Of a DNA stretch of 64,000 nucleotides, positions 2,390 through 64,000 are shown one piece after another. Each line of letters begins with the position of its first letter. Position 1 is the first letter of the stretch. The notes beneath the pieces are model-generated. The model had not been told where the DNA came from, searched no databases, and was given only the letters and a program-made list of their open reading frames with translations. Source of the DNA: a phage; the sequence record PQ478073.1; one strand, 5' to 3'. The translations under genes were made by a program, and so were the position numbers.

Positions 2390-2401
2390 AAGAGGTTGAA
2401 C

Positions 2402-35660: not shown

Positions 35661-38600
35661 TTAAGCTGTACGTTGTGCAATAAACATATCTACAACTGGA
35701 CTTACACCATCATAAATGACTTGGTAAATGGTCACAGAGTTTGCAGTTTTGTTTAGAGTGCCATCAACAACCGCATAAGTACCATCAGTAGTAAAGTTTC
35801 TGTTACCAGTTGCATCTTGTTTCACATAAATGTATACTGAAGATGCTTTACCACCACCGATTAGACCAGTGATTGGTGCTAGAGTTGTATCTTGATCAAG
35901 GGTGATAAAGTATACGTTGCTAGTACCATCAGGAGTCCAAGTACCAGTTGGTGCAATAACAGAAGAAGTTACTTGATTAGGAATAACATCATATTTTTTA
36001 GTAGTTACAGTAGTAGTAGTTAAATCAGCATTAGTTGTTGTTAGTTGACCAGTAACTGTTACATTTTTGTCAAACACAGCATTTTCTTTGAAAGAAGATG
36101 TTGCATTAACAGTTAATGTATCAGCAGCAGCGTCACCTAGAACAACACTACCATTTGCAGTCATTAAACCAGTAACAGTTAAAGTACCACCTACGGTTGC
36201 TGCACCAGTTACAGATGCACTAGCAAGAGTAGCAGCACCAGAAGTAGTAATTGTAGTTACAGAAGTAGCAGCAAGGGTAGCAGTACCAGTTGCAGAAATA
36301 TCACCACCGACAGTTAGGTTACCAGAAGTAATACCAACAGTTCCTGTGATATTCGCACCACTTGACATAGTAACTGCACCACCGAATGAACCAGTAGTAG
36401 TTACTTCAAGAGTGTTACCTTTTAGTAAACCAGTTGCAGTAATGCTTGTTCCTGCGGTAATACTAGTACCAGCAGCAACACTGTTAGTTGCAGTTAAAGA
36501 TTTAACAGCCACATCAGAGTTAGCTTGGTTTAGCGTTGCGTTTAGAACACCAGTTACTGTAAAGTTACCATTGTTAACTACGTTACCATTGATGGTTAAG
36601 TTGTTGTTTTGTGAACCAACATCACCAATAGTTGCAGATTTAGAAATCAATTCTGCACCAGATGTGATATTACCTGCTGCACTAATAGTATCAGCAGCAA
36701 CAACAGCATATGGTTCGATAGTTTGACCACTAACATCGATATCAGCGTTGATACCACCGTCTACACGCAAGGAACCTGCGATGTAAGTGTTAGGGAAAAT
36801 CTGAACTGTTTCTGGTTGATCACCAATTTTTGTACCAATTACAACGTTCGCACCAGTTTTAACTGCACCAGATGTTGTTAGTGAACCTAAAGTTGCTTCA
36901 CCAACTACACCTAATGTACCACCTACGGTTGCGTTATTAGTAACTGCCAAAGCTGTTCCTTCACCGTTAAGGGTGATAGATGGAGCAGTCGCTGCACCAG
37001 TTACGCCTAATGTACCACCTACGGTTGCGTTGCCATCAGAATGTAGTGTAGTAGCTACAGAAAGACTGTTTGCAACTACATCAGTACTTGCAAGATCCAA
37101 TGCACCTGGTGTTAATGTACCAGTAATGTTAACATTATTACCAAAGGTTGCTGCACCAGTAACATCTAGAGTTGTACTAAATGTACCAGAAGTTGCAGAA
37201 ACAGCACCAGAATCTAGTGAACCTACAGTTGCTTTTCCAGTTACACCTAGTGTACCACCTACAGTTGCGTCGGTTGTTACACCTAATGTACCAGTACTAA
37301 CTTCTTGAGCGGTTGCTTTACCAGATGCAGTAATAGTTGAAGTAGATACTCCCCCAGTTAATGTGCTTGCACCAGTTACTGCTAAAGTTGTTGCTGCTGT
37401 TACGCTGTTCACGTTAAGGTCAGCACCAGCTAGGTTCAAACCACCTTCAGGAATAAATTCACCCTTCACTGTTAGTTTTTGTACTGTACTATCACCAGTG
37501 ACTGCCAGTGTAGATGCAGTTAAACCACCATTCATACTAGCTGCACCAGTTACACCGAGTGTAGTGGTTACAACAGCACTATTAAGAGTAGCAGTGTCGG
37601 AAATATTAGCACTTGGTGCAGCAATAGTCCCAGCATCAACTTGAATACCACCAGTAACAACTTGGATACCACCAGCATTAACAGTGAGTTTACCAGCAGT
37701 GTTTAAGGTATTTGATACAGTTGTAGCACCAGATAGTGTACTTGTACCAGTAACACTTAGATTACCAGAAATTATTGGGCTACCAGTTACATTACCAGTT
37801 GTTAGAATTAAATCAGTACCTACAGTTGTAGAACCAGTACTTTCTAATGTTACACCAACAATGTTAGAAGAACTTAGGTTAATTGAACCTGTTACAGTCA
37901 AGTCACCATTAACAGTTGCGTTACCTAGTGAATTTAATGATTTCACTGAAACATCAGTAGTGCTAAGGTCAATTACACCCGCAGTTAATGTACCAGATAC
38001 AGCCAAATCACCAGTGATTGCAGTGTTTTTAGTAATAGAAACACTTTCAGCAGCAGAAGTTAGAGAACCAACAGTCAAAGCACCGCCAACAGTGGCGTTA
38101 TTAGTAACGTTAAGTGCAGTACCAACACCAGATAGTGTTGCAGACGCACCATTAACAGCACCAGAGATATTTGCATTTGCAGCAGATACATCACCTGAAA
38201 CAACCGCAGTTGTTGCATTTACTGTAGTTGCAGTAATATCAGTACTTTGTACTTTTGGTAGTAGGTTAACACCTTCAGCACTACTAACAGTGATGATTCC
38301 AGCACTTGTTAGAGATTTTACTGATACATCAGCAGCAGATAGGTCTACAGTACCAGAAACAACAAGGTCACCACCAATATTTGCACCAGCAGTTGTTGTG
38401 ATTGATTTAGCATTAACATCAGTTGTTGTTAAATCAATAGCACCTGGTGTTACTGTACCAGAAACTGTTAGGTCACCAGTAATAGATGTATTATTAGCAA
38501 TAGATACACCCGCAGTATTACCAATGGTTGGAACTTCAATAGAAACTGCTGTAACTTTACCAGAAGATGTTACATCAGCAACAGAAGTTGCACCAGTTAC

Positions 38601-42238: not shown

Positions 42239-44380
42239 TTATGGTAGGGTTATGTAAGTTACGGGTTGGGCGGCTTTTAATGCTGCACCAGCGGCAGTTG
42301 CTGTTATGATAGGATCTGCAATATCAATTCTATATACGTTGTTTACAACATACACTGCACGAGTTATATACGTTCTCAAATCACCACCATTTTCACCAGC
42401 ACCAGATATAATAATCTCAGTACCAGCAGCTTTTGCATATTGGTTTTCACCCCATGACACACCCAATGCTTCTATATATGTTTGTCCTACTACGGTTTGT
42501 CTAATAGTGTCGTATTTTCCGAAAAAAGAACCACCAACGGTCACAATATATTTTCCACCAGATTGCTTATGTATAATAGTACCTTCTGGGAAATAACGAC
42601 CACCCGGAAAAGTGTCGTAGGGAATATAATATTGTTCAACTACTGGTATCAGTACTGGGCCACGGTGACCTGTACCATCGATTGCAGTTGTAACTTTAAA
42701 GTTATTAGATGATTGGTCTATTCTGTCTACATACATTTTAGAAAAACTATATTTTGAAACATTACAATCATCTTGAACAACACAGTTAGTCCAATTAGTA
42801 TAAGTATATTTAGAGCGAGTATAGATACCACCACCTTCGCCTTCTGTAGAGAGATGTTGACCAATTACATCTAATTCTTTAGTTCTAATATCACTAAATT
42901 TAGATGATGATGGCAAACCACGCCAAAGGATTTTAGAACAAGTGATATTGCTCAATTCTGTATTATTTAACCAATTATCAGAACCGGAAGTATAAACAAG
43001 TATAGAAGACTCAGGAATATAGAGATTAGAAATTTTAAAGTTTCTAGGTGGCCCAGCAAAACGACCAGAAGTTACACCCCAGTTTATTGAAACCATTCTA
43101 TTTGTGATAGAAGGATCATTAAGCAAATGACCAGTCAACCCATCAATAATGAATTCTTTAGAACCATAAGTTATAACACCAGCAGTGGTTAATCCAGTAC
43201 CGACAGAAACTAAAGATGATGGATAAACTTCATTATTAAGTATTTTAAAGTCCATGCCTAATTCAACGTGGATACATTGTCTAACATTATATAGTCTGTT
43301 ATTTTTAATAACAAAGTTTCTGACATATTGTGTATCTGGTGCATCTAAACCATAAGGACCAGAACCAGCAACACCAATACCAATACCCCAGTTTGAAAGT
43401 GGGATTGGAGCGTTAGAACCATCAACGTTTTCAATTATGTTCCCTTCAATAACAAAACCATCAGGATAGTGTGAGTTAATTACGTTTAGTTCAATTGCAT
43501 CACCATATATATCATGTATGTGGTTATATGAATATCTACCAACCTTCATTTTCTCACCAGTACCTTGTTGAAGAACACCATACTTACATTGGGTCATTTC
43601 ATTAAAGCAAAAATCTATTGTACCTGGTTGTGTCATGCCTTGCATTAAAAATGCAGCAGTACTTGTGATGTTTATAAATTTATTAAAATAAAACTTACCA
43701 TCGCCACCGAAGAATTTTAAATAACATCCAGTAAGTGTTGCAAATTGTATTTGGGAATTAATAACGGATACCATAGTACCACCGTTACCAGTAATAGTTC
43801 CCCCAAACCAAGTTACATCTTCCAGATATATTGCCGTTTTGATACGGTAATTACCACCAGCCTGAATTTGTATTTTATTTTCTTTAGCATACGCAGCACA
43901 TAAATTTACAGCAGCAGTGTCATCAGTTTCGCCATCACCTTTAGCACCAAATTCTTCTGGTGTTATATAAAACTGTGCCTGTTGAACTGTACCTCCAGTA
44001 ATAAGTCCGATGAAATCCCCACCATTTTTACTGGATAGAACTTTTTTATTAATGTATAATGATTTTACCCATGTACCATTGCTTTTTGCAAAAATATCAA
44101 CAATACCATCTTCATCAATTTGAAAATACGTATTATTGTTCTTTCCTATATCATCGGTAGGTGGTACAACACCAAATAATGCATTAGGGTTATCTTCAAG
44201 ATATTTTACGTTAACTGCTGAATTAGGATCAGATGAAGTTCCTACCTTCAGTGGTAGGAACTGTTCTCCTAGATAATCTTTTATAGAAACTGAATCATTG
44301 ATAAAATTTATTGAAGCACCTTTTTTCCCCAATATGAATTTGGGCTGCATAGTTCCTTCAAAATTAGAAAATACTGCCAT
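42239..44380 (-). CDS. tail spike protein, putative beta-helix (possible depolymerase), shared N-terminal anchor (713 aa)
   Basis: GGGAGGA SD; N-terminus MAVFSNFEGTMQPKFILGKKG; central region with repeated short beta-strand/Gly-Asn turns typical of right-handed beta-helix. Confidence 0.5.
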   Translation of the reverse strand: MAVFSNFEGTMQPKFILGKKGASINFINDSVSIKDYLGEQFLPLKVGTSSDPNSAVNVKYLEDNPNALFGVVPPTDDIGKNNNTYFQIDEDGIVDIFAKSNGTWVKSLYINKKVLSSKNGGDFIGLITGGTVQQAQFYITPEEFGAKGDGETDDTAAVNLCAAYAKENKIQIQAGGNYRIKTAIYLEDVTWFGGTITGNGGTMVSVINSQIQFATLTGCYLKFFGGDGKFYFNKFINITSTAAFLMQGMTQPGTIDFCFNEMTQCKYGVLQQGTGEKMKVGRYSYNHIHDIYGDAIELNVINSHYPDGFVIEGNIIENVDGSNAPIPLSNWGIGIGVAGSGPYGLDAPDTQYVRNFVIKNNRLYNVRQCIHVELGMDFKILNNEVYPSSLVSVGTGLTTAGVITYGSKEFIIDGLTGHLLNDPSITNRMVSINWGVTSGRFAGPPRNFKISNLYIPESSILVYTSGSDNWLNNTELSNITCSKILWRGLPSSSKFSDIRTKELDVIGQHLSTEGEGGGIYTRSKYTYTNWTNCVVQDDCNVSKYSFSKMYVDRIDQSSNNFKVTTAIDGTGHRGPVLIPVVEQYYIPYDTFPGGRYFPEGTIIHKQSGGKYIVTVGGSFFGKYDTIRQTVVGQTYIEALGVSWGENQYAKAAGTEIIISGAGENGGDLRTYITRAVYVVNNVYRIDIADPIITATAAGAALKAAQPVTYITLP

Positions 44381-46127: not shown

Positions 46128-46736
46128 ATGAAATTAGAAACAGAACAACCAAAACTATTTGTTAAAGGTCATGTCCTAATTACTGACGTTACTGATCCAT
46201 CAAATCAAAAAATCGTTTTAGATAAATCTAACGCTATTCACCCTGAAAATATGAGTACTGCCATTGCTAATGCGTTAGCATATAATCAAGACAGTACTGG
46301 TATTCCTATTGGTTCTATTAGCGAGATGCGTTTTGGTAATGGTGGTACAGTAGTTTTAAGTACTGGTCGTGTTACTTATAAAAAACCACGTGTTACATCA
46401 TTCGGTGGTTTGTATTCACAAACATATTTGAAAAAAATCAACCCACGAATTACGGCAGGTATTGATTCACAATACAATAATATTACAACTGTACATATAC
46501 CAGGACAGTCCTATACTGATATTGTATGTATTTGTACTCTAGGGTTAGGTGAACCATCCGACCAAGGTGTAAGCTCAGGGACAAGCATGGATGGAACTTA
46601 TGTATTTGATGAATTGGGATTGTACACGGATGGCGATAGTGGTATTCCTTTAACCCATATCATTTTTCACCCAGTTGAGAAAAGTGCAAACCGTGTCTTA
46701 CAAATTAAATACACAGTTCGTGTACAATTACAATAA
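46128..46736 (+). CDS. hypothetical protein (202 aa)
   Basis: ORF track. Confidence 0.5.
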   Translation: MKLETEQPKLFVKGHVLITDVTDPSNQKIVLDKSNAIHPENMSTAIANALAYNQDSTGIPIGSISEMRFGNGGTVVLSTGRVTYKKPRVTSFGGLYSQTYLKKINPRITAGIDSQYNNITTVHIPGQSYTDIVCICTLGLGEPSDQGVSSGTSMDGTYVFDELGLYTDGDSGIPLTHIIFHPVEKSANRVLQIKYTVRVQLQ

Positions 46737-47881: not shown

Positions 47882-48346
47882 TTAATATCTATATGGTAAA
47901 CTGTTGACAAACTGTGTACCTTCACGTATACTTTCCCATAGTGAGTAAAAATCTTTCATTAAGTTTGTGTTAAGTAAAGTATTTTTAGCACCAGGGTGTA
48001 ATGGTTTAGGCCAAGAACCAATTCTAACCCAAGCATAACCAGAGCTTTCATGATTTAAAGTTGGTACAAATTCATTCTCAACTACAATAACAAATGAATA
48101 ATATTTAAATTTACCATTTTTTGTACAAAATACATCAAACGGTATAATATCAATAATGTTAGGTATTGAGTTGCCCAACTCTTCTTTAATTTCTCTCATC
48201 AGACCTTGTAGTGGTGTTTCGTTATGTTCAAGCTTTCCACCAACAAATGCCCAGTTGTTAGAATAGGTACTTCTTTCAGAACGCAAGTTTAACATCATAT
48301 GTCCAGTACTTTTTGATAAAAATATAGCACCAACCGCTTCATTCAT
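47882..48346 (-). CDS. NUDIX hydrolase (154 aa)
   Basis: AAGGAGG SD; Nudix box GGKLEHNETPLQGLMREIKEELG. Confidence 0.8.
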   Translation of the reverse strand: MNEAVGAIFLSKSTGHMMLNLRSERSTYSNNWAFVGGKLEHNETPLQGLMREIKEELGNSIPNIIDIIPFDVFCTKNGKFKYYSFVIVVENEFVPTLNHESSGYAWVRIGSWPKPLHPGAKNTLLNTNLMKDFYSLWESIREGTQFVNSLPYRY

Positions 48347-51262: not shown

Positions 51263-51303
51263 TGTTTATTAATTAGAGTGACGTGAATCACATAGGAGAA
51301 TAC

Positions 51304-53592
51304 ATGAATCTTACTCAATTGTTCAAAAAAAGCGACGAACTGGCAACATCTCTAGGTCATACATTCTTGACTATTGACCACGTAAGTGCCACAGTACTGA
51401 CTATTGATAGCATCAAGAACGTATTTGAAGATATGAACATTGATGCAGACAAACTGCACAACCGCCTGATGAACTATCTTAAAAATACAACAGTTCCACA
51501 TGCACCAAAAAGTGTTAAAGATGAAGACGCGAATCGCACTTCACTTCTAGTGAATCGCGTTGTACATGAGCTTTCTAAAAAATCAGTTATTGAACAACTA
51601 AAAAGTGATGATTTTTCGATTGATGCATATTTTGTTCTATTCGAATGTCTGTCTTTCCCTAACACAGCACTAGAAGCTGCGTTGAAAGAAGAAGGTGTTA
51701 GCTGTACTGAAGCTGCACGTGCATTGCAAAAACACGTTGAGTCACTTGATAAGGGTATCAACTTACAAAGTATTAATGACGAACCGATTGGAGATAAAAA
51801 AGTGGCCCAACAGCAGCAATCATCTAAACAAAAAGGTTTGGAAGACTATACAACGAATCTAACAGCTCTTGCAAAAGAAGGCAAACTAGATCCTATGATT
51901 GGTCGCCAGAAAGAATTGTCTGCATTGATTGAGACTCTTGCTCGCAAAACCAAAAAGAATGCTATTCTTACTGGTGAAGCTGGTGTAGGTAAAACACAAA
52001 TCATCGACGGTCTTGCACAAGCTATTGCTGACGGCAACGTACCTGAACACCTGAAAGACGTTGAAATTCTTTCACTAAATGTTGGTGCATTGACTGCTGG
52101 TACTAAGTATCGTGGTGAGTTTGAAGAACGCATCGACAATTTGCTAAAAGAACTAAAGAAACGTGAAAATACTATTGTTTTCATTGATGAAATTCATATT
52201 ATGGTTGGGGCTGGTTCCGCAAGTAATGGTTCTATGGACATGAGCAATATGCTTAAGCCAGCACTTTCACGTGGTGAGATTCGTGTAATTGGTGCAACAA
52301 CATATGATGAATATCGTAAAAATATCGAGAAAGATAGTGCATTAACTCGTCGTTTTATGAAAATTGATGTAGTTGAGCCGTCAATTGATGAAACTCGTGC
52401 AATTGTTAATGGTTTGAAACCAACTTATGAAAAATTCCATAATGTTGAGTTCACAACTGATGCAATGGATGCTGTAATTTCTCTCAGTGATAAATTCCTG
52501 AAGAATAAGCACTTCCCAGATAAAGCAATTGATCTAATGGACGCTGCTGCTGCAAAAGTTCGTTCACGTGACAACAATAGTAAGCTTATTACTGCCAATT
52601 TGATTCAAGAAGTTGTTGCTGGTATTGCCAATTTGGATATCAACGTGGTTGCATGTACTGAAAGTGATCGTATGCGTAATCTACCAGATGCACTACGCTC
52701 ACGTGTATACGGTCAAGAGGAAGCTATTCAAAAATTAGTTGATAACGTGATGGTAGCTCGTGCAGGTCTGCGTGACAAATCTAGTGTTCAGGGTGCATTT
52801 ATGTTTGTTGGACCATCTGGTACTGGTAAAACAGAAATTACCAAAGCATTAGCAGATGCAACTGGTGCGGAACTGATTCGCTTTGATATGTCAGAATTTT
52901 CTCAAGAACATACTGTTTCTAAACTAATTGGTTCACCTCCAGGTTATGTTGGTCATGATTCTGGTAACGGTTTACTGTTGGATAAAATTGAGCAGTTCCC
53001 TAATGCAGTACTGTTACTTGATGAAATTGAAAAAGCAGATCGTAAAGTACTACTAACCTTCCTACAGGTTTTGGATGAAGGTCGCCTGACTGGTTCACAA
53101 GGTAAAACTGTATATTTTAATAACGTAACTGTTATTATGACTACAAACCTTGGTGCGGCAGATTCAACGAAGCGTAGCATTGGTATGAGCGGTAGTGATA
53201 CTGCACAAGACAAGGCTATTAAAGCATTCTTGCCACCAGAGTTCATTAACCGTATTGATAGTATCGTTACGTTTAAAGACCTAAGCAGTGAAGCTATTGA
53301 CAGCATCATTGATAAGTTCATGGGCAGTTTGAATGAACAAGTCAAAGACCGCAATGTTAAAGTTACGTTGACAAAAGCTGCACGTGAATGGCTTGCGAAA
53401 AATGGGGTAAAAGTTGGCATGGGTGCACGTCCAATGAAACGTACCATTGAACAAAACATTCGTGTACCACTAGCTAAAGAAATGTTGTGTGGTTCACTTG
53501 TGAATGGTGGTAACATTACATTTGATGTTATTGATGGTAAAATCGGTATTAAACCTAAACGTTCCAAAGCTGTAGATAAAGCACTGGCATAA
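51304..53592 (+). CDS. ClpA-like double-AAA+ chaperone/unfoldase
   Basis: Start at ATG 51304 after AGGAG (ORF track GTG 51283); Walker [11 protein letters not shown] and [10 protein letters not shown], Walker B FIDEIH and [22 protein letters not shown] tripeptide (KRSIGMSG) at the ClpA IGL-loop position; no long ClpB-type middle domain. Confidence 0.85.
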
Positions 53593-53628
53593 AAAAAGAA
53601 AAGGAGAGCAACATGCTCTCCTTTTTTA
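53593..53628. terminator. bidirectional rho-independent terminator
   Basis: A-run, ggagagca / aca / tgctctcc hairpin, T-run, between convergent clpA-like and giant gene. Confidence 0.75.
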
Positions 53629-56600
53629 TTATTTAACTAATAATATATTTTTAATATCATTACCACTAACTTGTAGACTATCAGTGTATACTGAAAGATC
53701 TATAGTGTAACTATTTTGTGTGTAACGTTTTAACATATCATAATTACCTAAATTAATTCCATTGAATGAATATGTAGTATTAAGTTTAAAATCATGTTCT
53801 GCACTATACATTACTCCACGGAGTAAATTATTTGCATTTCTAACTTCAACTTTTTCATATCCAATCGATATAATATCATTTATGTTCGCGGCAGAACCGG
53901 ATAAAACATTATTTCTAATACTATAAGGACTTATTGATTTAGGTTGAGAAACATAGGTTGTATTTTCTTCACTAATGGTTGTGATGTTAGTAACCGTACC
54001 ACCAACAACACCGATGTACATACCGTCAACCATTGGATAACCATAAACCCATATACCTTCATTATTTCTAAACGGTTGAATAACACTTGAATCATATTCA
54101 ATAACGTTGATTTCTAAACTATCAGTCATTTTAGTTCTTGCTAATTCACTAAGAACTCCCGCACCAGTAATTGGTAGGTTATAACCGTTGTCGATAGTAA
54201 TTCCATCAACATCAAATATTTCGTTAGAGATTATCCAAACGTCAACGTCATCTGGTGTTATTCCGTCATTGTACTTACCACCATTTAAAGTAGTATCGTA
54301 GAAAACATCATAATTAATTACATCAATTGTGTAATTTCTATTTTGTTCGTACAATTTGATACCATTCTTCACAAATTCTGGGTCAGCAAATGTTCTAACA
54401 CGAACAATGTTCAATGCAAGAGGCTGTACTGGCTCATTTTGTTGTGCAAGAGTGATATTATCATAACGGAGAACTGCACCAGTACTCTCATCAATCAATT
54501 CAATCGTTTCTTTACCTGTATTTCTTACAGTGAATAGGATCGGAGTTGTATTGTTTTTGATGTTAGATACACGCAAGATTGTTTCCCATGTGTGATTTTG
54601 ATATCTCACAAAATCTTCACCATCAGGAGTGAAAATCATCACCTTATCACCATCAGATAGGTCATTGTCAACTATTTCTGCTTCAGTTAAGCTATTAATA
54701 GATCTCACACGATAGAAATATTTTTCATCAAACTTCGATGTTGTTTTATTAATATCATTTTCAATCTTAGCATATGAAGGAATACTAACAATTGCTTCTG
54801 TATGTTTATATGGATTGATAATTGCCATACCTTCAGTTTGATATCTGCTGTTATCACGTAATTGTACAAGAGATACATTGTCAAACCCATATCCATCAAC
54901 TGTAAATCTAATTTGACCAACATCACGCCCAGAAGGGTTTATGTCAGATATATCCACAATATAAGGATCAACTTCATCATCTTTAACTTCCCATTTTATT
55001 GAAGAAGTTTGAGATTCTAATGCTAGGTTATCAAATGCATTCATATCATTGAAGTACTTAGCTTCAGTAATACTATCAAGTATATATTGATAATCTGAAT
55101 ACATTGGGTTATTTTGATCTAGTGGTAAATCATCTAGATTTATTTCAGCTAGTTCAATCATTTCACCATTTGTGATAAAATAATCTTCCATGAAATCATC
55201 AATACTTTGTTCATCAGGTATACTTTGATATACACCGTTAACATTTAAGTAAACATATTTTCGTGGAATCATTGTAATTGCATAGATATCAATTGGGGTT
55301 TTACTAAGAATCTCTTCAGCTTTTTCGTACTTATCAGTAGCGTCTTTGTCGAATAACCCTCTCATACCTGCTAATACGTGAATAGCATCAGTATAGAAAC
55401 GGGTATCACCACCGACTTCATCATAACGATAAACATATACACCATACTCAACTTCAAGTTTAACTTTTACTTCATAGTCTGATGCGTCAGGATTTTTATC
55501 TTTAATTAATGAAATATATTTTTGATACAGTTCACTGCTTATTTCAAAATATCCATAGTTATAATCATTACTAGAAGAAAAGCCTAATGGAAGTCTAGTA
55601 CTAGGATTGTCATTATAAGTAAGTCCACTAAATCCACAACCAACTTCATCGTGAATTTTCTCATCACTTATATCTTTATAAAGTTTCAAACGGTTTGCCA
55701 ATGTGTTATACTGAACATATTGTCTAAGGTCAGTAAACATATCGTTCTGCGTTGATTCTTTATAAACACGCTCCAATGTAGCAGTAAATTCATCAGTTGC
55801 TTCTAAATCTTCCGCATGGTCTTTATACCACTGGTTAACACCATATGCTGTTCCTAATGTTACATCCAATTCTGGATAGTAGATTTGCATTTGATAAGCA
55901 ATAAGAAGATCGAAAGTTTCTTCACTATATTCTGGGAAAGAATATATATAACGTTGTAATTCATAGTTACTAACAGCATCCTTTTCATTGGATTGATATT
56001 TGTTATTAACACTTACTAATTCATTTATGCTTGCTAAATCTGCATTTGGTTTACATTGAATGTTATCGTAATGCATAATAATATCAATTTCTTGGAATCT
56101 TCTATTTGGTGTAATGAAATCACTTGGTAGTGAACCTACCTGTTCCCATTTTTGGGTAATTTCATTAAATTGAGCGTACTCATAATCCCAAATATCTTTT
56201 TCAGTTTTGACCCAAGAACCGTCAACGAAAATATATCCATTAGGATCTAAATCATTACACAGACCTTTTATTAAATCATCATCAGATGTCTTTTGCTCTA
56301 TTTGTGAACGAATTTTAGTTCTATAAGGTTTAACTTCTTCAAAATATTCAACAATTTGATTAATCAAATTATCGTTTGAATAGTTTTGAACTAATGATTG
56401 TTCCAAACCAACAATATAGATATATGATGTTTTAAATACCCAATCCACAACACTTTGTTCAACATGTACATATTTGACCATATCAAAAACAATTTCGCTT
56501 TGATGTAAATCGAAAGAATTTTTGAGTAAAGCTAGTGCTTTACGAACGTTGATTTCACGATTGCTTAGTGAACCATTATCATTATGAACACTATAATCTG

Positions 56601-59600
56601 CGTAAAGCATATCATTGAGTTCAACTGTACTGTTTTCACGACCAATCGCTTTCCAATAAATTGAATCGCGTGATTGTGATTTAATATACAATGTCCAAAT
56701 GTTTTCACTATCGGTAACTCTGATAATATCTCCAACTTGGTAGTTTTTAGTATTAGCATCTTCTAAGCTTGACTCTTGTGTATAAGTCGTGTTACTATCA
56801 TACCCAACATCATACCAATCAGCATATGACCAGTACTGAGTCATGTCCAATGAAGTTCCTAGTGATTCAACATAATCAGATTGTTTAATCATTTTATGTT
56901 GTCCCTCACCTTTGTTCTCTAACGTTATAGTAACAACACTACCCGCGTTTGCTGGACTATTCATTAACTGAATATATCCATTTTCGTCGAAGTGAATAAA
57001 ATAAACAGCACTAGAAGTTAATGGATTTGGTAGATATCCACTAGTACTTAAAATAACAGCGTCATTTTCTTTAAATTTATCACTTTCAACTGCAATAACT
57101 AATTCATTATTGTAAGACAATACACGGAAAGAAACTTCATTCGGGTTAACTTCAGTGGTTTTAACATTAAACACATCTTCCATAACAACACTATTAGTGG
57201 TTATGTTTTGTGACCTATAATAATTATTAGCACTTTCTACAAAGTTTCTACGAGCTTCTATAACATTTTGGAACCAAGTTTTGTTTGAACCTAAACCGTT
57301 ATCAACATCTGGATATAATAAATTAATCACAGAACCTGATTCAGTTGTTTCTTGACCAATTAGTGAGTTCCACATTGAATCCCAAATTAGTGGGTTAAAG
57401 TTATAGCTGTCACCTTCTTTACATAGTTGATACTGGTCATGTTTAACAACTTCAGTACTATCCATGTAATAAGAAACAGTTAAAATACTGGTATCATCAT
57501 TCACTTTAAATTGCATATTACTAAGAATAAACGAGTTTTCATTGATTGGAGCGAACCAAGGAATGTTTAGCTGTGTTGGATCTTTAATAATACGAGCAAT
57601 GTCAGTACATGATTTTGTTCTGGTATGTAGTGGTGGTACATAAATTGTATCACGTACCCAGAAATAGTATTTTGTCACATAACTATCAGTTGAACTATCA
57701 TATTCCAAAAATGTACTATAATTATCTTCAAGTGCAGTTCCACTTGGTAGATACATAGTATTATTTTTGTTTTTCTTAGCAACATCTTTACAGTATTTGT
57801 CCCAGTTATATGGCTCAACTGGTGAACAAACCCACTCTAACACATCAATTGTACTATGTGGTAATAAACGACCCCAGTTGTAACGTTTGTATTCATTGGT
57901 TGCATCAATGTCAACATTACCGTCTGCGTCATAAATTGCACGAGTATAATCCAAATAAAATGCAGTGCTAGTGTTCCACCATACTTGACCAACTTTATCA
58001 GCACCCCAAGCCTGGATTAACTCTCCATTACTATTATACTGTGCAGGATCAACTGGTGAAGTATATGTTACGTTTTGCATAGCCGCACCTGGAATAACAC
58101 CATTAATTGGGTCATAAACGTTTAGATATAGCTCAGTAATGTTAGTACGTTCATCATATGTCGTTGGACGATCAAATAAAGTACTTTGTGGTGCTTTAAA
58201 ACTATATTTCTTGTCAATGTAAGCTTGACGTTCATCAGTACTGGCAAAACGTGATACATAACGATACAAACGTGGACGTGTATCTGGATCAGTAAATTCA
58301 ATATCAATAGAAGTGTCAAATGGAACTACCATAACTTTAGGATCAGAACCAGCAGTATAATATTGACTTTCTACTGTTAAAGTATCTGGCATAAAGTTAG
58401 TTTCATCAACAAAATAATAATAATCACCATCTTCAAGTGGTACATTATCAGTTAAAGTTACTTTACAAAATTGTTCAGCATACACATCGGTATTTTCAAT
58501 AGGTGTTATAGAAACCATTTGAACATTAGTATCAACCAATTCAAAAATGTTCCACAAACCATTACCGTCTTTAAACATCCACACAGATTCAGGATTTTCA
58601 CCTTTACCATTAGTATAAGTTATGCGGTCATTATATGCAGTACTGAAATCTTTTGTTGTGTACGATACTTCATCCAATGTTACTGGACCAATATCTGGAA
58701 GTTGGATATTTTCACTTCTTCCACTACGCATTGGGAATGAGAACTTACCATTTGGACGTGTAATCCAACGAGGATCTTTACCCTGCTCACCGAAGTATAC
58801 AATATGATTACCATTACCATTTGAAGTTGCATTTACATCAAAAGAAACCATTTGAGGTTGTTGTTTAAATTGGTCATTGATTAGTTTAAATTGAAGGTTT
58901 TTCTTACCATCAATATTACCATATGTACCAATTTTAAATGCCCATTCTTGTAATGCTTTATATTCATCAGTGTCATATGATTTAGAAACACGAAGGACAC
59001 GTTCTAAAACTTGGTTAGTACCTTTATCGTGAATGAATCCTTTATAGAAATCAACACGACTAACATCACTACTAATCATACGCTGTAGATAATCACGAGA
59101 TTGATAACCAATCAAATGGTTTGACAACTCTTGTAATTGTACATCACTTACTGGAGTTTCACTATCATAATAATGTTGGAAATCCGACACTAATTTTTCA
59201 AATGATGGTAGTGTTCCAGCTTCCAAGATAATAAATCCAGGAGCTTGTAGGCGACCAGTCCATGAACCAGTAATATATCCATACATTTTAATTAGTTCTT
59301 GAATAGAACCATATGTTGGCTGATAAATGTAATCACCAAAAATAGTTTTATCATCAAAAATAACAGCATGTTCATATGAACACAAACTTAAACGAATCAA
59401 TGCAATGCGTTTATTAGATTCTAAAGTTCTAACAGTGAAGATATTTCCAATACGAGAAGTTTCAATTTCATATTGGCGAATACCTTGGTTATTATCATCA
59501 AGTAATGACCATACACCACCATTATTTTGCGTAATAGATTGTACTGAACCAAAGTCTGCCCCAAATTTAGCGTTTGCAGCACTTGGGGTACAAGAAATAA

Positions 59601-62600
59601 ATTCACCAGTTACTAGAGAATTCTGACTCCAGATCACGAAATCTTTAGCAATAGTGTTCCAATCTTGTTGAGCACCACTATCATTTACATCTTCAAAAAT
59701 CCAACCATGTTCTTTAAGATATTCACCATATCCACAAATAAAAGTATAAACTTCTTGGTAACTATTGAAAACTTTACCATATTCAATTGAAGCTTCAGAC
59801 TTCCATTCATTATAATGAACAACATTACGGTTTTCCAATTTAAGAGTTACTTTTCTACCATTTTTTACGGGAAGTTTATATTTAAATTTAGCACCAACTA
59901 GATCATATCCATCAATCTGATATGCACTACCATTCCAAGTAATTTTGATCGCACTCATTTGCTCATCACGGATATTATTAGAACGAACAAGACCAATGGT
60001 TTGGTTTTCTTGTGAAATAAGACCGAAAGATTTAGCATTGAATGTTAGCTGATCTGCTTTAGTAAATCCTCCAATTTTATGACCAACATTTATATAAGAA
60101 GAACGAACTACATCCCCATACTTGGTGGTAATATTTTTATTTTGATACATCAAATGGTCACTTACAAACATTTGATAACCAATTGTTCTTGTGCTATTTT
60201 CACCATGAACTACTGTATTTTTATCAAAATTAATACGCTTACGTGTATCACCATAAAGGAATTGTGAACCATCAGTGAATACTTCTTTTAAGTTATCATT
60301 GCGGGTATCCCAGAAATAGTTAGCAAATTGTGCTGGTTTAGCTTTATACAAAAGCATCATTTGGTCATATGCAAACAATGTAGTGTTCATGTATGTAAAT
60401 TCCATGTCACCCATATCACCATATGTCCAAGGTTCTGCTCTATGATTTAAAGATCCAGACACTAAACCTAAAATTTCAGGTGCAATATATTCAACCACAC
60501 AAATATCAATACCAGAAGATGTTTTATTTCCAGTTTTTGTAATTTTGAATGGCTGTACACCAAATCTTTTATATTTGTCATATTGACCACGACGATCACC
60601 AAATAAAATAGTTCCAGTACTGCTATCGCCAATACTTCCGTCAATATCCCAAAGACCACTAGGAACTAAATCACCTTGCTCATTCATAACAAGTGCTTCA
60701 TATACATATACAACATCACTATCACGTTCACCAACTTGAACAGCCGTTGGTTCGTATTCTTGGTTCCACCAAGTTGGACGTTGTGTAAAGCCAAACATTT
60801 CCCACGGATGGGTAGCTGGGCGATATGTACCATATTGGTCAGTGTAAATGGCACGCCATGAACCACGTGCAGGAATTTCAGTACTTTGACCATTAACTAC
60901 ATAATAAGTGCCAGTATAGTTCCAAGTTCTCCAATTGTTAGGATCATAATCATGTGTACTATTACTGATACCATTAGTTGCGGTGAAGTTAATGTATCCA
61001 CGTAGTAATAATGTTTGTTTCTCTTCAGCACTATATTCAGTTTTAGTGAAATATGGTGTAGGGAAAAGGTCATCACTATTCAATACTGGTACGTAATCAA
61101 CATCTTTGAATTTATTATCAATACTATTAAAAATTCTATTTTCTAATTCATATACAACATCATCCATTTTATCAACACCATTGATAACACGGTATGCTTT
61201 GGAAATAATACCAGTATGACTGATGTTATAACAGCTTGGTTTACTACCAGCAGTGAGGAATGTCGCTTTTTCTGGTACATATGCTTGAAGAATACCTAAG
61301 AACTGTGGTGTTGGTGGTATAAATGCACGAATGAATCCAGAAGTACTTCCAACATTATCATAATAGAATGGGAATGAACTATCACGTCCCATATTAATAG
61401 TAGTTAAAATTGCATCAACAATGTTTGCAGCACTATTTTGTAAAAAGTCTGATGGATTTTCATCATACATACGAAGCATTTGTGTATTAAATTTATTAAT
61501 GAATCTAAAATATTCAGATTGCATAAACATAGTTGCTTCAAATAAATCAATATCTTCATTTGCAGTATGTGCCATCAATGGAAGCATAGATGCTTCATTT
61601 TGGATAATTTTAGTACCTACGCCATTATTAACCAATCCTTTAGCCAAACGTTCTTCATAGTCATTGAAATCATCAGAAGAACCACGTGTAATGTTCTTTT
61701 GAATAATATCCTGAAAATGTAAAGTGTAGTCACCTTGGTTAATGTATATAATATTAGAATTATATGGGTTATTTTGTAGGTTGATTGGAACTTCATAAGC
61801 ACCTAATTCTTTATCAGGTGTTACAGTACTGCTATAAGTTCTGATTTGAATAACAGAATCTTCATCCAATTCTACAGTACTATCTAGAGTGATGCTTTGT
61901 ACTTGACCTTTTGAAACATTTTTGGTATATTTGGACACATCAACACCATCAACCACAACTTCAATAATATCAGAATCATTATCTAAAACTTTTTGTGCCA
62001 ATTCGAATGTATGGTCATATTTTACAATCTGAACACCATCACCAGTAATTGGATGCCAATCTAGATAAGTTTCTCGGTCAGCTTTATAGTACTGATATGT
62101 TCTATCAACTTCAATAACATATGCATACATACCATCAACTGGTTCTTTAAAAACTTCCATATCATAAACAGTACTGAATACACGATACATATCAGTACGT
62201 TTGACTTGTGGAGTTTGTTTTACAAATTGTTTAGAGTACTCTTCTGAACGAACCCAATCGGTTTGAAGATTCATTTCATTATTTTCATCAATAATGTTAT
62301 AATAGTATAAACCATCAATTTCAACTTCTTTTCCAAGATGGTCATAGGTATAACGTTGGGATTGTAAAAAGTTTTCATAAATGTAATAATTATAATCACC
62401 AAGTTCAATGTTATATCCATATACACTATCAGTTGCATAGTTGTAATTTATTTTAAAACCAAACAACTCTGAACCTTTAAAGTTACTTGATGGATATGTA
62501 GTACTGTTGTCAAGTTTGATACCATTACGATCATAAAGTTGGAATTTAGGGAATACGTTAACACTAGTTTTTGATTGTGCACGAACCCACAAAGAACCAT

Positions 62601-63600
62601 TCCAGTACATAGAACTATTACCATACTCATTACCTTTAGTGATTAGAACAACATCACCATCTTGAGGTTCACCACTTGGGCGTGATTCGGTTTCTTCTTC
62701 TGGATCTAGTGCTAAACCATAAACACGAGTACCATCTTGCATTTTTTTCACATATACATTATAAATTCTATTGTTTTCACCATTGTTACCAATACTGGTG
62801 AATAGAATACGCATTCCATCTTGCGGAATAATACCATCAATACGTATACCACTATTAATATCTTTTTGAACGATATCTTCAGGTTTAATAATATCAGAGA
62901 ACAGATCAACAGTTCCACGGAATTTTGTACCGTAGTTAATTAGCTCAATATTTTTATTATATTCAATAATTGGTGCACGTGCACGAATAAAACGTGAATC
63001 TTGCATTAATTCTTCAGTTAATATTGAGCCATCTTCTAATGTTTCACCTAAAGTATACCAAAAGTTTTGTAGTGACCATGTATTACCATTAAGTGCTCCG
63101 CGTTCCATTACAATGTAATCAGGTGAAGTAATATTATAAGAGTTTTTAGTATCCCAAAGATATGAGCTAAAATTGTTCATTTTATTTGGGTTAATAGCTG
63201 GAGTCCATGCATAAAACTTACCGTTGAACAAACGGCTTTCATTATCGGTTAGTGCTCCATAATGATTCATGTATCCAACTAGATCATCATAAAATTGAAT
63301 TGAACGAATTGTCGAATCATCATTTTTTGAGACGTAAGCAGTGGACAACTGATAAAGTTGACGTGCTACAGTACTTTCATGTAAGAAGATATTACCAGCA
63401 GCGGCAGGAGAACCCATATCACCAATATAGCCGTCAACTAATTCGTTTTCAGCCGGATTAAACCATTGTTGAATAACATCATCACTGACTTTTTGAATAT
63501 CTTCTAAGCCTTGCATCCACTCAGGCAATCTTTTAATAAAAAGCTTCTTCTGTACTGCTTCAGCCATCTGTGTAGGTTGAAACTTAAAATTATTAGTCAT
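53629..63600 (-). CDS. giant protein of unknown function (about 3323 aa; 3333 aa if first ATG 63630 is used)
   Basis: Single uninterrupted ORF of about 10 kb; GGAG SD 7 nt upstream of ATG 63600, none upstream of 63630; Y/N/D-rich, no transmembrane or catalytic motif recognised by eye. Confidence 0.7.
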   Translation of the reverse strand: MTNNFKFQPTQMAEAVQKKLFIKRLPEWMQGLEDIQKVSDDVIQQWFNPAENELVDGYIGDMGSPAAAGNIFLHESTVARQLYQLSTAYVSKNDDSTIRSIQFYDDLVGYMNHYGALTDNESRLFNGKFYAWTPAINPNKMNNFSSYLWDTKNSYNITSPDYIVMERGALNGNTWSLQNFWYTLGETLEDGSILTEELMQDSRFIRARAPIIEYNKNIELINYGTKFRGTVDLFSDIIKPEDIVQKDINSGIRIDGIIPQDGMRILFTSIGNNGENNRIYNVYVKKMQDGTRVYGLALDPEEETESRPSGEPQDGDVVLITKGNEYGNSSMYWNGSLWVRAQSKTSVNVFPKFQLYDRNGIKLDNSTTYPSSNFKGSELFGFKINYNYATDSVYGYNIELGDYNYYIYENFLQSQRYTYDHLGKEVEIDGLYYYNIIDENNEMNLQTDWVRSEEYSKQFVKQTPQVKRTDMYRVFSTVYDMEVFKEPVDGMYAYVIEVDRTYQYYKADRETYLDWHPITGDGVQIVKYDHTFELAQKVLDNDSDIIEVVVDGVDVSKYTKNVSKGQVQSITLDSTVELDEDSVIQIRTYSSTVTPDKELGAYEVPINLQNNPYNSNIIYINQGDYTLHFQDIIQKNITRGSSDDFNDYEERLAKGLVNNGVGTKIIQNEASMLPLMAHTANEDIDLFEATMFMQSEYFRFINKFNTQMLRMYDENPSDFLQNSAANIVDAILTTINMGRDSSFPFYYDNVGSTSGFIRAFIPPTPQFLGILQAYVPEKATFLTAGSKPSCYNISHTGIISKAYRVINGVDKMDDVVYELENRIFNSIDNKFKDVDYVPVLNSDDLFPTPYFTKTEYSAEEKQTLLLRGYINFTATNGISNSTHDYDPNNWRTWNYTGTYYVVNGQSTEIPARGSWRAIYTDQYGTYRPATHPWEMFGFTQRPTWWNQEYEPTAVQVGERDSDVVYVYEALVMNEQGDLVPSGLWDIDGSIGDSSTGTILFGDRRGQYDKYKRFGVQPFKITKTGNKTSSGIDICVVEYIAPEILGLVSGSLNHRAEPWTYGDMGDMEFTYMNTTLFAYDQMMLLYKAKPAQFANYFWDTRNDNLKEVFTDGSQFLYGDTRKRINFDKNTVVHGENSTRTIGYQMFVSDHLMYQNKNITTKYGDVVRSSYINVGHKIGGFTKADQLTFNAKSFGLISQENQTIGLVRSNNIRDEQMSAIKITWNGSAYQIDGYDLVGAKFKYKLPVKNGRKVTLKLENRNVVHYNEWKSEASIEYGKVFNSYQEVYTFICGYGEYLKEHGWIFEDVNDSGAQQDWNTIAKDFVIWSQNSLVTGEFISCTPSAANAKFGADFGSVQSITQNNGGVWSLLDDNNQGIRQYEIETSRIGNIFTVRTLESNKRIALIRLSLCSYEHAVIFDDKTIFGDYIYQPTYGSIQELIKMYGYITGSWTGRLQAPGFIILEAGTLPSFEKLVSDFQHYYDSETPVSDVQLQELSNHLIGYQSRDYLQRMISSDVSRVDFYKGFIHDKGTNQVLERVLRVSKSYDTDEYKALQEWAFKIGTYGNIDGKKNLQFKLINDQFKQQPQMVSFDVNATSNGNGNHIVYFGEQGKDPRWITRPNGKFSFPMRSGRSENIQLPDIGPVTLDEVSYTTKDFSTAYNDRITYTNGKGENPESVWMFKDGNGLWNIFELVDTNVQMVSITPIENTDVYAEQFCKVTLTDNVPLEDGDYYYFVDETNFMPDTLTVESQYYTAGSDPKVMVVPFDTSIDIEFTDPDTRPRLYRYVSRFASTDERQAYIDKKYSFKAPQSTLFDRPTTYDERTNITELYLNVYDPINGVIPGAAMQNVTYTSPVDPAQYNSNGELIQAWGADKVGQVWWNTSTAFYLDYTRAIYDADGNVDIDATNEYKRYNWGRLLPHSTIDVLEWVCSPVEPYNWDKYCKDVAKKNKNNTMYLPSGTALEDNYSTFLEYDSSTDSYVTKYYFWVRDTIYVPPLHTRTKSCTDIARIIKDPTQLNIPWFAPINENSFILSNMQFKVNDDTSILTVSYYMDSTEVVKHDQYQLCKEGDSYNFNPLIWDSMWNSLIGQETTESGSVINLLYPDVDNGLGSNKTWFQNVIEARRNFVESANNYYRSQNITTNSVVMEDVFNVKTTEVNPNEVSFRVLSYNNELVIAVESDKFKENDAVILSTSGYLPNPLTSSAVYFIHFDENGYIQLMNSPANAGSVVTITLENKGEGQHKMIKQSDYVESLGTSLDMTQYWSYADWYDVGYDSNTTYTQESSLEDANTKNYQVGDIIRVTDSENIWTLYIKSQSRDSIYWKAIGRENSTVELNDMLYADYSVHNDNGSLSNREINVRKALALLKNSFDLHQSEIVFDMVKYVHVEQSVVDWVFKTSYIYIVGLEQSLVQNYSNDNLINQIVEYFEEVKPYRTKIRSQIEQKTSDDDLIKGLCNDLDPNGYIFVDGSWVKTEKDIWDYEYAQFNEITQKWEQVGSLPSDFITPNRRFQEIDIIMHYDNIQCKPNADLASINELVSVNNKYQSNEKDAVSNYELQRYIYSFPEYSEETFDLLIAYQMQIYYPELDVTLGTAYGVNQWYKDHAEDLEATDEFTATLERVYKESTQNDMFTDLRQYVQYNTLANRLKLYKDISDEKIHDEVGCGFSGLTYNDNPSTRLPLGFSSSNDYNYGYFEISSELYQKYISLIKDKNPDASDYEVKVKLEVEYGVYVYRYDEVGGDTRFYTDAIHVLAGMRGLFDKDATDKYEKAEEILSKTPIDIYAITMIPRKYVYLNVNGVYQSIPDEQSIDDFMEDYFITNGEMIELAEINLDDLPLDQNNPMYSDYQYILDSITEAKYFNDMNAFDNLALESQTSSIKWEVKDDEVDPYIVDISDINPSGRDVGQIRFTVDGYGFDNVSLVQLRDNSRYQTEGMAIINPYKHTEAIVSIPSYAKIENDINKTTSKFDEKYFYRVRSINSLTEAEIVDNDLSDGDKVMIFTPDGEDFVRYQNHTWETILRVSNIKNNTTPILFTVRNTGKETIELIDESTGAVLRYDNITLAQQNEPVQPLALNIVRVRTFADPEFVKNGIKLYEQNRNYTIDVINYDVFYDTTLNGGKYNDGITPDDVDVWIISNEIFDVDGITIDNGYNLPITGAGVLSELARTKMTDSLEINVIEYDSSVIQPFRNNEGIWVYGYPMVDGMYIGVVGGTVTNITTISEENTTYVSQPKSISPYSIRNNVLSGSAANINDIISIGYEKVEVRNANNLLRGVMYSAEHDFKLNTTYSFNGINLGNYDMLKRYTQNSYTIDLSVYTDSLQVSGNDIKNILLVK

Positions 63601-63648
63601 TTTTGGACTCCATATAATTCGTTCATTCATTTGATTTATTTATGATAT

Positions 63649-63672
63649 AAAAAAGGCGTTCCGAAGAACGCC
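63649..63672 (-). terminator. rho-independent terminator
   Basis: ggcgttc / cgaa / gaacgcc hairpin with U-run on the minus strand (A-run 63649-63654). Confidence 0.65.
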
Positions 63673-63679
63673 CGTTATA

Positions 63680-64000
63680 TTAAGAACCGATATTAATATT
63701 ACTTTTAGCTAGTGAGTTAACAATTTGAACATTTTCAACAGATGCAGTACTCAAGAATATTTGGTCTGAACGTGAAGGGATTTCAAATAGAGAACCAAAT
63801 TTTGAATTTGGATTTTGTGCAACTATAACAATAGTACTAATATGTCTACCTAACTGTGAGTGTATGTAAGTACACAAATCAGTATAATAGAAACTTTCAC
63901 CGAAATCCCAGTTATCAACATTGAAGTATTCATTAGTTAATGCTATGACATTTTGACGAATTTCATCATCACTCATTGTGCTGTTTGGTAATTTCACTAC
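63680..64000 (-). CDS. hypothetical protein, 3' portion (gene probably continues beyond window end)
   Basis: ORF track 63680..63997; reading frame open to window edge. Confidence 0.45.
   Translation of the reverse strand, partial: VVKLPNSTMSDDEIRQNVIALTNEYFNVDNWDFGESFYYTDLCTYIHSQLGRHISTIVIVAQNPNSKFGSLFEIPSRSDQIFLSTASVENVQIVNSLAKSNINIGS

What the first reader, a model, noticed from the sequence alone, without database searches (positions are those of the whole stretch)
53629..63630. Giant 3.3-kaa ORF occupying 10 kb with no recognisable domains
One uninterrupted minus-strand reading frame of about 10 kb (about 16 percent of the window), flanked by clean terminators, with a proper SD only at the internal ATG 63600. 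Composition is Tyr/Asn/Asp-rich but not low-complexity or tandem-repetitive like the 1841-aa fibre, and no catalytic, nucleotide-binding or transmembrane motif was spotted by eye. Proteins this size in phages are usually virion components (tail or baseplate complexes) or virion-packaged enzymes, but assignment here is open.
Basis: seen in the sequence. Interest (0 to 1): 0.6.

Follow-up and report, generated by a model that had tools for sequence, protein, structure and literature searches.

The report
Giant baseplate protein of jumbo phages
The 10-kb gene is real and encodes a 382-kDa protein already detected in virus particles of near-identical Rak2-like jumbo phages; its fixed position after the baseplate genes suggests it is a huge baseplate wedge protein, but it matches no solved structure or known family.

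Summary
There is one intact minus-strand ORF at 53629..63630. The true start is very probably ATG 63600, giving 3,323 aa, 381.8 kDa and pI 4.6. The window comes from a PBECO4/phAPEC6/121Q-type (Rak2-like) jumbo myophage. The gene is intact at 99% identity in many independent isolates and is under strong purifying selection. Published mass spectrometry found its orthologues (phAPEC6 gp245, CBB_236) in purified virions, with no function assigned.

New here:
- A profile of the central core finds 1,186 clusters at 50% identity, almost all giants of 2,400-6,300 aa.
- The gene always follows spike/lysozyme, gp25-like and gp6-like (DUF8360) genes, usually abutting or overlapping the latter, and precedes fibre genes. 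That is the T4 gp7 / P2 gpI slot.
- About 2,450 aa are conserved, there are fixed insertion hot-spots, and the C-terminal ~870 aa vary.
- Distant relatives carry carbohydrate-binding or adhesion modules.

Best reading: a baseplate wedge and periphery scaffold that works like gp7. Membership of the gp7 family is not shown. Interest is moderate.

The parts
53629..63600 (-). Giant virion protein CDS from the probable true start ATG 63600 (3,323 aa, 381.8 kDa, pI 4.58). The mechanical ORF extends to ATG 63630.
   Evidence: homologues of 3,323 aa; annotated CDS in SHEFM2K; PHROG 10938 full-length match, E=0
63608..63611 (-). Shine-Dalgarno GGAG, 7 nt upstream of ATG 63600
   Evidence: read from the sequence
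63637..63644 (-). CATAAATA, one mismatch from the T4 late-promoter consensus TATAAATA (consensus recalled from general knowledge). This is a lead only and was not tested.
   Evidence: read from the sequence; a gp55-like late sigma factor is annotated nearby in SHEFM2K
63654..63673 (-). Terminator-like hairpin plus T-run between the gp6-like gene and the giant gene
63680..64000 (-). 3' end of the upstream 1,153-aa gp6-like baseplate wedge gene (DUF8360 family). It runs off the window.
   Evidence: weak colinear similarity to T4 gp6; published BLAST of CBB_237 to KVP40 gp6, 3e-5
63427..63600 (-). N-terminal arm, aa 11-68. It is highly conserved (invariant P36) but modelled as low-confidence helices, making it a candidate partner-dependent segment.
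59875..63426 (-). aa 69-1252: conserved beta-rich and helical domains, well modelled. Family insertion hot-spots lie near aa 160, 470-590 and 760.
58831..59448 (-). Central signature core, aa 1395-1600 (W-GRL-APG ... IGYQ-R-YL ... FY-G-I--KGT ... EEWAF-G-YG ... PQ). It is the most conserved block. Helices at aa ~1477-1545 have pLDDT below 50.
   Evidence: the profile finds 1,186 cluster representatives
58156..58830 (-). aa 1601-1825: variable linker and main insertion hot-spot. Relatives carry up to ~1,700 extra aa here.
56251..58155 (-). aa 1826-2460: conserved beta-rich domains that end the family-wide core
53632..56250 (-). aa 2461-3333: lineage-specific, fastest-evolving C-terminal region, not alignable to distant relatives
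53597..53627 (.). Bidirectional terminator-like hairpin shared with the convergent Lon-like protease gene
46128..46736 (+). 202-aa conserved ORF (phrog_11259). Its orthologue lies immediately downstream of the giant gene in 4 of 5 distant contigs, so it may be a partner and is the rival candidate for the gpI-sized protein.

Best explanation
The ORF encodes a structural protein of the tail baseplate. It is most likely present once per wedge (six per virion) and fills the role that gp7 plays in T4 and gpI/TssG play in P2-type and type VI systems. In this reading its conserved, partner-dependent helical segments (aa ~20-57 and/or ~1477-1545) join two copies of the upstream gp6-like protein. Its many beta-rich domains would build the baseplate periphery. 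The fast-evolving C-terminal third and the insertion hot-spots would face outward, to dock fibres and/or touch the cell surface.

Shown: it is a real, selected gene; it is in virions; the gene order is invariant; the domain anatomy is as described.

Inferred: the baseplate location, the copy number, pairing with the gp6-like protein, fibre docking and signal transmission.
For: Virion protein by mass spectrometry in phAPEC6 (gp245, next to gp244 'baseplate wedge') and in CBB (CBB_236, next to CBB_237 gp6-like). In PA5oct, gp128, named as one of that phage's two largest proteins, has the gene number next to the annotated baseplate wedge gp129; gp130 (baseplate protein) and gp133 (hub/lysozyme) are close by. 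I infer this is the orthologue.

The gene order spike/lysozyme, GPW_gp25, DUF8360 (~1,100 aa), giant, then fibre genes holds in the window clade and in five of five contigs whose giants are only 23-29% identical. The giant gene's start overlaps or abuts the upstream stop in four of the five (-8, -1, +2, -1 nt), which suggests coupled expression.

The upstream protein is weakly but specifically gp6-like: hhalign aligns 462-475 colinear columns, P about 0.002, including the gp6 helical domain, while other T4 wedge proteins score P>=0.3. No gp7-gp12 homologue appears in the published T4-homologue table for CBB, so the universal gp7 role is otherwise unfilled.

The architecture parallels T4 gp7, with peripheral domains, then a helical segment, then more domains (Gp7_helical lies at 643-689 of 1,032). 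The two most conserved blocks are low-confidence helices, as expected for segments that fold only in a hetero-oligomer.

Against: Baseplate location has not been shown directly. A conserved ~200-aa protein encoded right after the giant gene in distant relatives is the size of gpI and could be the true triplex partner. No gp6-like/giant fusion was found among 244 giants.
Confidence: 0.55

Rival explanations
1. It is a peripheral baseplate protein, a single-chain stand-in for T4 gp8/gp9/gp10/gp11-type proteins, but not the gp7 equivalent. The conserved ~200-aa protein (window 46128..46736) would then be the real gpI/TssG-like triplex partner of the gp6-like protein.
For: The ~200-aa gene follows the giant gene directly in 4 of 5 distant contigs and is gpI-sized. 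Its window orthologue is 41-44% identical. A ~22-kDa protein (gp251c) is in the phAPEC6 virion list, which may correspond to it (my inference). The giant protein shows no gp7 or gpI homology.
Against: The 200-aa family shows no similarity to gpI, gp7, gp53, gp8, gp9 or gp11 either (P>=0.07). In the window clade it is not adjacent to the gp6-like gene. It is absent from that position in L007, where a 384-aa gene follows.
Confidence: 0.25
2. It is itself a fibre-like adhesin or receptor-binding protein attached to the baseplate, rather than part of the wedge.
Against: About 2,450 aa are conserved across relatives from very diverse samples, unlike receptor-binding proteins. There are no shaft repeats, Collar or Peptidase_S74 domains, and no internal repeats. 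Separate fibre genes follow it. The window protein has no CBM or FG-GAP module.
Confidence: 0.1
3. It is a tape-measure or internal ejected tail protein.
For: It is very large and lies in the tail module. Some jumbo phages have large internal tail proteins (general knowledge).
Against: The models are beta-rich and globular, not extended helices. At about 1.5 A per residue, 3,323 aa would measure a ~500-nm tail, whereas the observed tails are 123-128 nm. The surface-type modules in relatives also argue against an internal position.
Confidence: 0.04
4. It is a virion-packaged enzyme, for example an N4-like virion RNA polymerase.
For: Only size: N4 vRNAP is about 3,500 aa (general knowledge).
Against: No polymerase or other catalytic domain appears in Pfam, the PDB or fold searches. 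A gp55-like late sigma factor is annotated nearby. PA5oct was reported to rely on the host RNA polymerase.
Confidence: 0.02

Closest known systems
Orthologues in Rak2-like jumbo phages: phAPEC6 gp245, PBECO4/121Q/SHEFM2K 'virion structural protein', CBB_236, probably PA5oct gp128 (PHROG 10938)
   Same: Same gene. 99% nucleotide identity to the phAPEC6/PBECO4 group, 58% amino-acid identity to CBB, full-length PHROG match. Mass spectrometry found it in virions.
   Different: Nothing material. The literature I read assigns no function or location.
T4 gp7 (baseplate wedge initiator, 1,032 aa; Pfam Gp7_helical, Gp7_5th, Gp7_6th)
   Same: It is encoded directly after the gp6-type gene, it is a large multidomain virion protein, and it has a helical segment flanked by peripheral domains.
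P2 gpI / TssG-type minimal wedge protein (Tail_P2_I, ~176 aa)
   Same: It occupies the slot between the J-like (gp6-like) gene and the fibre genes, as in the P2 order J-I-H. The same local match recurs, giant aa ~1440-1512 against gpI ~84-152.
   Different: That match is not significant (P 0.016-0.03, probability below 5%). The protein is 19 times larger, and there is no Pfam Tail_P2_I hit even on trimmed cores.
N-terminal attachment domains of phage fibres and tailspikes (CBA120 TSP4 residues 1-250, T7 gp17 N-terminus, cyanophage A4 and P-SCSP1u fibres)

Membership tests
T4 gp7 / P2 gpI / TssG wedge 'triplex' protein | Gene lies immediately downstream of the gp6/gpJ/TssF-type gene in the baseplate module | tested here: met
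   Window clade plus five distant contigs. Compared with the T4 and P2 gene maps.
T4 gp7 / P2 gpI / TssG wedge 'triplex' protein | Detectable sequence homology to Gp7_helical/Gp7_5th/Gp7_6th, Tail_P2_I or TssG | tested here: not met
   Pfam gives nothing for the whole protein (E<=1) or for trimmed central and N-terminal modules of 9-10 diverse members (E<=10). hhalign against gp7 and gpI alignments gives probability below 5%. The gpI and gp7 alignments used had low diversity, and TssG itself was not compared by profile.
T4 gp7 / P2 gpI / TssG wedge 'triplex' protein | Core fold (bundle helix plus trifurcation strands) superposes on gp7 or TssG structures | tested here: inconclusive
T4 gp7 / P2 gpI / TssG wedge 'triplex' protein | Forms a 1:2 heterotrimer with the gp6-type protein, six per baseplate | not testable with these tools
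   This needs complex prediction or cryo-EM. The only indirect evidence is abutting or overlapping genes.
PHROG 10938 (Rak2-like giant virion structural protein) | Full-length profile match | tested here: met
   E=0, 5,789 bits, residues 11-3330 matched to profile positions 1-3324 of 3,324.
Tape-measure protein | Extended, mostly helical protein whose length scales with tail length | tested here: not met
   The models are beta-rich and multidomain. 3,323 aa would predict a ~500-nm tail, against 123-128 nm measured for CBB and RaK2.
N4-type virion RNA polymerase or other packaged enzyme | Recognisable catalytic domain | tested here: not met
   No Pfam, PDB-sequence or fold match to any enzyme family above noise.
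Tail fibre or tailspike | Shaft repeats, beta-helix, or Collar/Peptidase_S74-type domains | tested here: not met

The most novel reading that the evidence does not exclude
A very widespread, so far uncharacterised family (more than 1,000 clusters at 50% identity, proteins of 2,400-6,300 aa) forms a single-chain 'mega-wedge' in a large clade of jumbo and huge phages. In this reading it replaces the multi-protein baseplate periphery of T4 (gp7 plus gp8-gp11) with folds that have no solved relatives. It also uses fixed insertion hot-spots to plug in carbohydrate-binding modules, so that the baseplate itself becomes a receptor-sensing organ.
Probability: 0.3. Interest if true: 0.65.

Novelty: new variant of a known kind. 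Interest (0 to 1): 0.45.

Why it matters
Contractile-tail baseplates are thought to share a small universal core of gp25, gp6 and gp7-type proteins. In Rak2-like jumbo phages the gp7-type protein has never been identified. If this 382-kDa protein fills that role, it would be by far the largest wedge protein known. It would also show how very large phages build a baseplate from one giant chain instead of many small ones.

The family is large (1,186 clusters at 50% identity) and has no solved structural relative, so it is a worthwhile cryo-EM target. Its variable C-terminus and its insertion hot-spots are candidate determinants of fibre docking or host contact. That matters for engineering the host range of jumbo phages now being explored for therapy.

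The gene itself is not new. It is annotated in GenBank and its product has been seen by mass spectrometry.

Tried and rejected
1. Pfam on the whole protein (E<=1) and on trimmed central-core and N-terminal modules from 9-10 diverse members (E<=10) found nothing.

2. PDB sequence searches with the single protein, a full-length profile (A6) and a central-core profile (A7) found nothing.

3. hhalign of seven slices of the family alignment against a T4 gp7 family alignment gave probability below 3% everywhere. Repeating with 245-sequence alignments was still negative.

4. My by-eye motif leads were not supported. These were 'DFYKGFIHDKGT' against the T4 gp7 / P2 gpI 'KGT' region, and the N-terminal 'LLP..QT' against the gpI N-terminus. 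hhalign instead prefers a different, non-significant local match (aa 1440-1512 against gpI 84-152). The N-terminus against gpI gives P=0.76. I treat all of these as unproven.

6. The search for gp6-like/giant fusion proteins among 244 giants found none.

7. The ~200-aa downstream protein tested as a gpI homologue got no hhalign support.

8. The homologous-protein searches on T4 gp7 and P2 gpI listed only close relatives (46% and 70% identity or more), so the comparison profiles were shallow.

9. The literature I searched (phAPEC6, RaK2, CBB, phiKp24, PA5oct, Sharanji, Alcyoneusvirus adsorption complex) assigns no function to this protein.

No complex prediction was possible.
Full report
**1. 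The observation**

The minus-strand ORF 53629..63630 (3,333 codons) exists as described. Given the local base composition, a stop is expected every ~12 codons, so the chance probability of such a frame is about 1e-121. GC at the three codon positions is 0.45/0.33/0.20.

ATG 63600 is preceded by GGAG at a 7-nt spacing, and ATG 63630 has no such site. Homologues and the SHEFM2K annotation begin at the equivalent of M11 (3,323 aa). The mass from M11, 381.8 kDa, equals that published for phAPEC6 gp245 (381.88 kDa).

Terminator-like hairpins lie on both sides, at 63654-63673 and at the bidirectional 53597-53627. The protein is acidic (pI 4.58) and rich in D, N, Y, S, T and I. It has no internal repeats and no TM-like segment.

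**2. Whose gene it is, and whether it is intact elsewhere**

Megablast against 50,697 phage records finds 58 matching records. Of these, 35 cover at least 80% of the gene and 12 are at least 99% identical. They include phAPEC6, SHEFM2K, SP27, PBECO4, G17, Sharanji, UB, 121Q and Salmonella phages. More distant matches are in Klebsiella, Cronobacter, Erwinia and Serratia jumbo phages. The window therefore comes from a PBECO4/121Q-type, Rak2-like jumbo myophage.

Against SHEFM2K the gene has 85 nucleotide differences, 72 of them at third codon positions. That gives 72 synonymous and 12 non-synonymous codon changes. No amino-acid change falls in aa 1253-2460, and 8 of the 12 fall in the last quarter. 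The frame is a real gene under purifying selection, not an assembly chimera.

**3. What was already known**

The protein matches PHROG 10938 ('virion structural protein') over its full length. Published ESI-MS/MS of purified phAPEC6 virions lists gp245 (381.88 kDa, 'hypothetical protein', 17 unique peptides, 7.6% coverage). It sits directly after gp244, 'baseplate wedge', 131 kDa (PMC7247149).

In phage CBB the orthologue CBB_236 was also detected (21 peptides). It is next to CBB_237, which the authors matched weakly to gp6 of T4 and KVP40. CBB_238 is gp25-like, CBB_240 gp5-like and CBB_242 gp53-like. No gp7-gp12 homologues appear in their T4-homologue table (PMC5259590).

In PA5oct, gp128 is named as one of the two largest proteins. 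Its gene number is adjacent to gp129, annotated as baseplate wedge (PMC7318152), so I infer it is the orthologue. None of the papers I read assigns a function or a location.

**4. Family and anatomy**

A word-indexed search returned 195 homologues. All of those listed are 2,780-5,638 aa long, and identity falls to 23-29%.

BLAST mapping shows a colinear conserved core, aa ~14-2460. It is interrupted at fixed hot-spots near aa 160, 470-590, 760, 1252, 1600-1825 and 2145-2260, where relatives carry up to ~1,700 extra residues. The C-terminal region, aa ~2470-3333, is alignable only within the closer clade.

Region-wise identity shows that the N-terminal arm (aa 11-170) and the block aa 1253-1600 are the most conserved. 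The C-terminal region is the least conserved: for CBB, 69% and 68% against 40%.

I built a profile from trimmed central cores (aa 1395-1600) and searched it against 1.84 billion representative proteins. It found 1,186 proteins at E<=1e-3 and 695 at E<=1e-30. Of the 141 new representatives listed, 124 are at least 2,400 aa long, with a median of 3,476 and a maximum of 6,281. The core sits ~1,300-1,900 residues from the N-terminus, and the short entries look like contig-end fragments.

Of 11 distant members scanned with Pfam, 9 carry CBM_5_12, 7 carry FG-GAP repeats and 1 a Gly-rich domain. Others have Laminin_G_3 or TIG. The window protein carries none of these.

**5. Genomic context**

In SHEFM2K the same strand reads:
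- a gp53-like gene;
- a 749-aa structural protein;
- gp5-like spike/lysozyme (Phage_base_V plus lysozyme);
- a small lysozyme;
- GPW_gp25;
- a 1,153-aa 'baseplate wedge subunit';
- the giant gene.

Five contigs carry giants only 23-29% identical to this one; two of those giants also occur on contigs of 481 and 513 kb. All five show the order spike, GPW_gp25, DUF8360 (1,054-1,176 aa), giant. A ~200-aa gene and a Collar-domain fibre gene (in L002, Gp34_trimer/Peptidase_S74 fibres) follow in 4 of the 5; the fifth contig ends just after a 384-aa gene.

The giant gene's start overlaps or abuts the DUF8360 stop by -8, -1, +2 and -1 nt, with one gap of 68 nt. In the window clade the gap is 79 nt and holds a hairpin, a late-promoter-like CATAAATA and the gene's own SD.

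The DUF8360 proteins are orthologous across these contigs, at 32-43% identity to the SHEFM2K protein. They are weakly but specifically gp6-like. hhalign aligns 462-475 colinear columns to T4 gp6 at P about 0.002, including gp6 residues 26-113, which overlap the Pfam 'Gp6-like helical domain' (25-98). Other T4 wedge proteins score P>=0.3.

The order spike-gp25-gp6-X-fibre corresponds to the J-I-H part of the P2 map and to gp6-gp7 in T4, both of which I fetched. The full P2 V-W-J-I-H order is from my own knowledge. X is the slot of gpI or gp7.

**6. Structure**

AlphaFold2 with a 23-sequence alignment gave two models. aa 11-1210 has mean pLDDT 81.7 and pTM 0.76. aa 1253-2452 has mean pLDDT 75.7 and pTM 0.47. 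Both are chains of beta-rich domains with some helical bundles, not an extended helical protein.

Two segments are strongly conserved yet modelled as low-confidence helices: aa ~21-57 and aa ~1477-1545. The second lies within the signature '...IGYQ-R-YL...FY-G-I--KGT...'. That pattern is expected for segments that fold only against partner chains. This is inference.

Fold comparison identifies no relative:
- Foldseek against the PDB on aa 11-1210 gives best E=0.11.

The weak top hits of the last search are small N-terminal attachment domains of fibres and tailspikes (CBA120 TSP4 1-250, T7 gp17 N-terminus, cyanophage fibres, Carin-1 tailspike). This is a coherent theme but below the level of proof.

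**7. Tests of gp7/gpI membership**

All sequence tests were negative:
- Pfam, including trimmed modules at E<=10.
- PDB profiles.
- hhalign against a T4 gp7 family alignment and a P2 gpI alignment, with 38- and 245-sequence query alignments.

The only recurring signal is a local alignment of aa ~1440-1512 to gpI ~84-152, sharing 'LGY..W..PG-F...(A/S)RHLIG'. It has P=0.016-0.03 and probability below 5%, which is not significant. My by-eye motif matches were not supported.

I therefore do not file the protein as a member of the gp7/gpI/TssG family. I propose only that it works in that position.

**8. Interpretation**

The best-supported reading (confidence 0.55) is a baseplate wedge and periphery scaffold that partners the gp6-like protein. 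It would have conserved inner parts and an outward-facing, fast-evolving C-terminus. Insertion hot-spots accept carbohydrate-binding modules in relatives.

The main rival (0.25) keeps it in the baseplate periphery but gives the triplex role to the conserved ~200-aa protein (window 46128..46736). That protein also lacks any detectable gpI or gp7 similarity.

Less likely readings:
- Fibre or adhesin (0.10).
- Tape measure or internal protein (0.04). Length scaling would predict a ~500-nm tail, against 123-128 nm observed.
- Packaged enzyme (0.02).

**9. Novelty and score**

The gene and its presence in virions are already on record. What this work adds:
- the size of the family;
- the invariant gp25, gp6-like, giant gene order down to 23-29% identity;
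- the conserved-core, hot-spot and variable-tail anatomy;
- the absence of any solved structural relative.

I rate it a new variant of a known kind (a baseplate wedge or peripheral protein), with interest 0.45. Cryo-EM of a Rak2-like baseplate or a complex prediction would settle the mechanism.

Noticed in passing
window 46128..46736 (+): This 202-aa ORF (phrog_11259, unknown function) is the orthologue (41-44% identity) of a ~200-aa gene that lies immediately downstream of the giant gene in 4 of 5 distant contigs (L002, L003, L006, L008). Here it sits ~7 kb away. It may be a partner of the giant protein.
   Followed up: partly
window 63601..63679 (-): In this clade the junction between the gp6-like gene and the giant gene holds a terminator-like hairpin, a late-promoter-like CATAAATA and a separate SD, with a 79-nt gap. 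In distant relatives the two genes overlap or abut. Expression may have become uncoupled here.
   Followed up: partly
window 51283..53592 (+): A Lon-like ATP-dependent protease gene (phrog_4871, E=0) lies inside the tail/baseplate module. It is convergent with the giant gene and shares its bidirectional terminator. The mechanical ORF starts at a GTG 7 codons (21 nt) upstream of the start annotated in SHEFM2K (769 versus 762 aa).
   Followed up: no
window 47882..48346 (-): A MutT/NUDIX hydrolase gene sits between tail-sheath-stabiliser-like and virion structural genes, according to the SHEFM2K annotation.
   Followed up: no
GenBank OR699183.1 (Salmonella phage SD-1_S14), 288488-298465: The orthologous gene is annotated there as three hypothetical proteins and aligns over 9,978 nt instead of 10,002. 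Frameshifts from assembly errors are likely. It is the only broken copy among the listed near-identical records.
   Followed up: no
L006 8001-22673, L008 8001-24917, and other distant homologues: Distant family members carry CBM_5_12, FG-GAP, Laminin_G_3, TIG or Gly-rich modules inserted at the same hot-spots, and reach 5,638-6,281 aa.
   Followed up: partly
window 42239..44380 (-) and 35661..41186 (-): A 713-aa protein matches 'colanic acid degradation' and tailspike PHROGs. An 1,841-aa fibre-like ORF lies 12-18 kb from the giant gene's 3' end. Both are candidate fibres that would dock on the baseplate.
   Followed up: no
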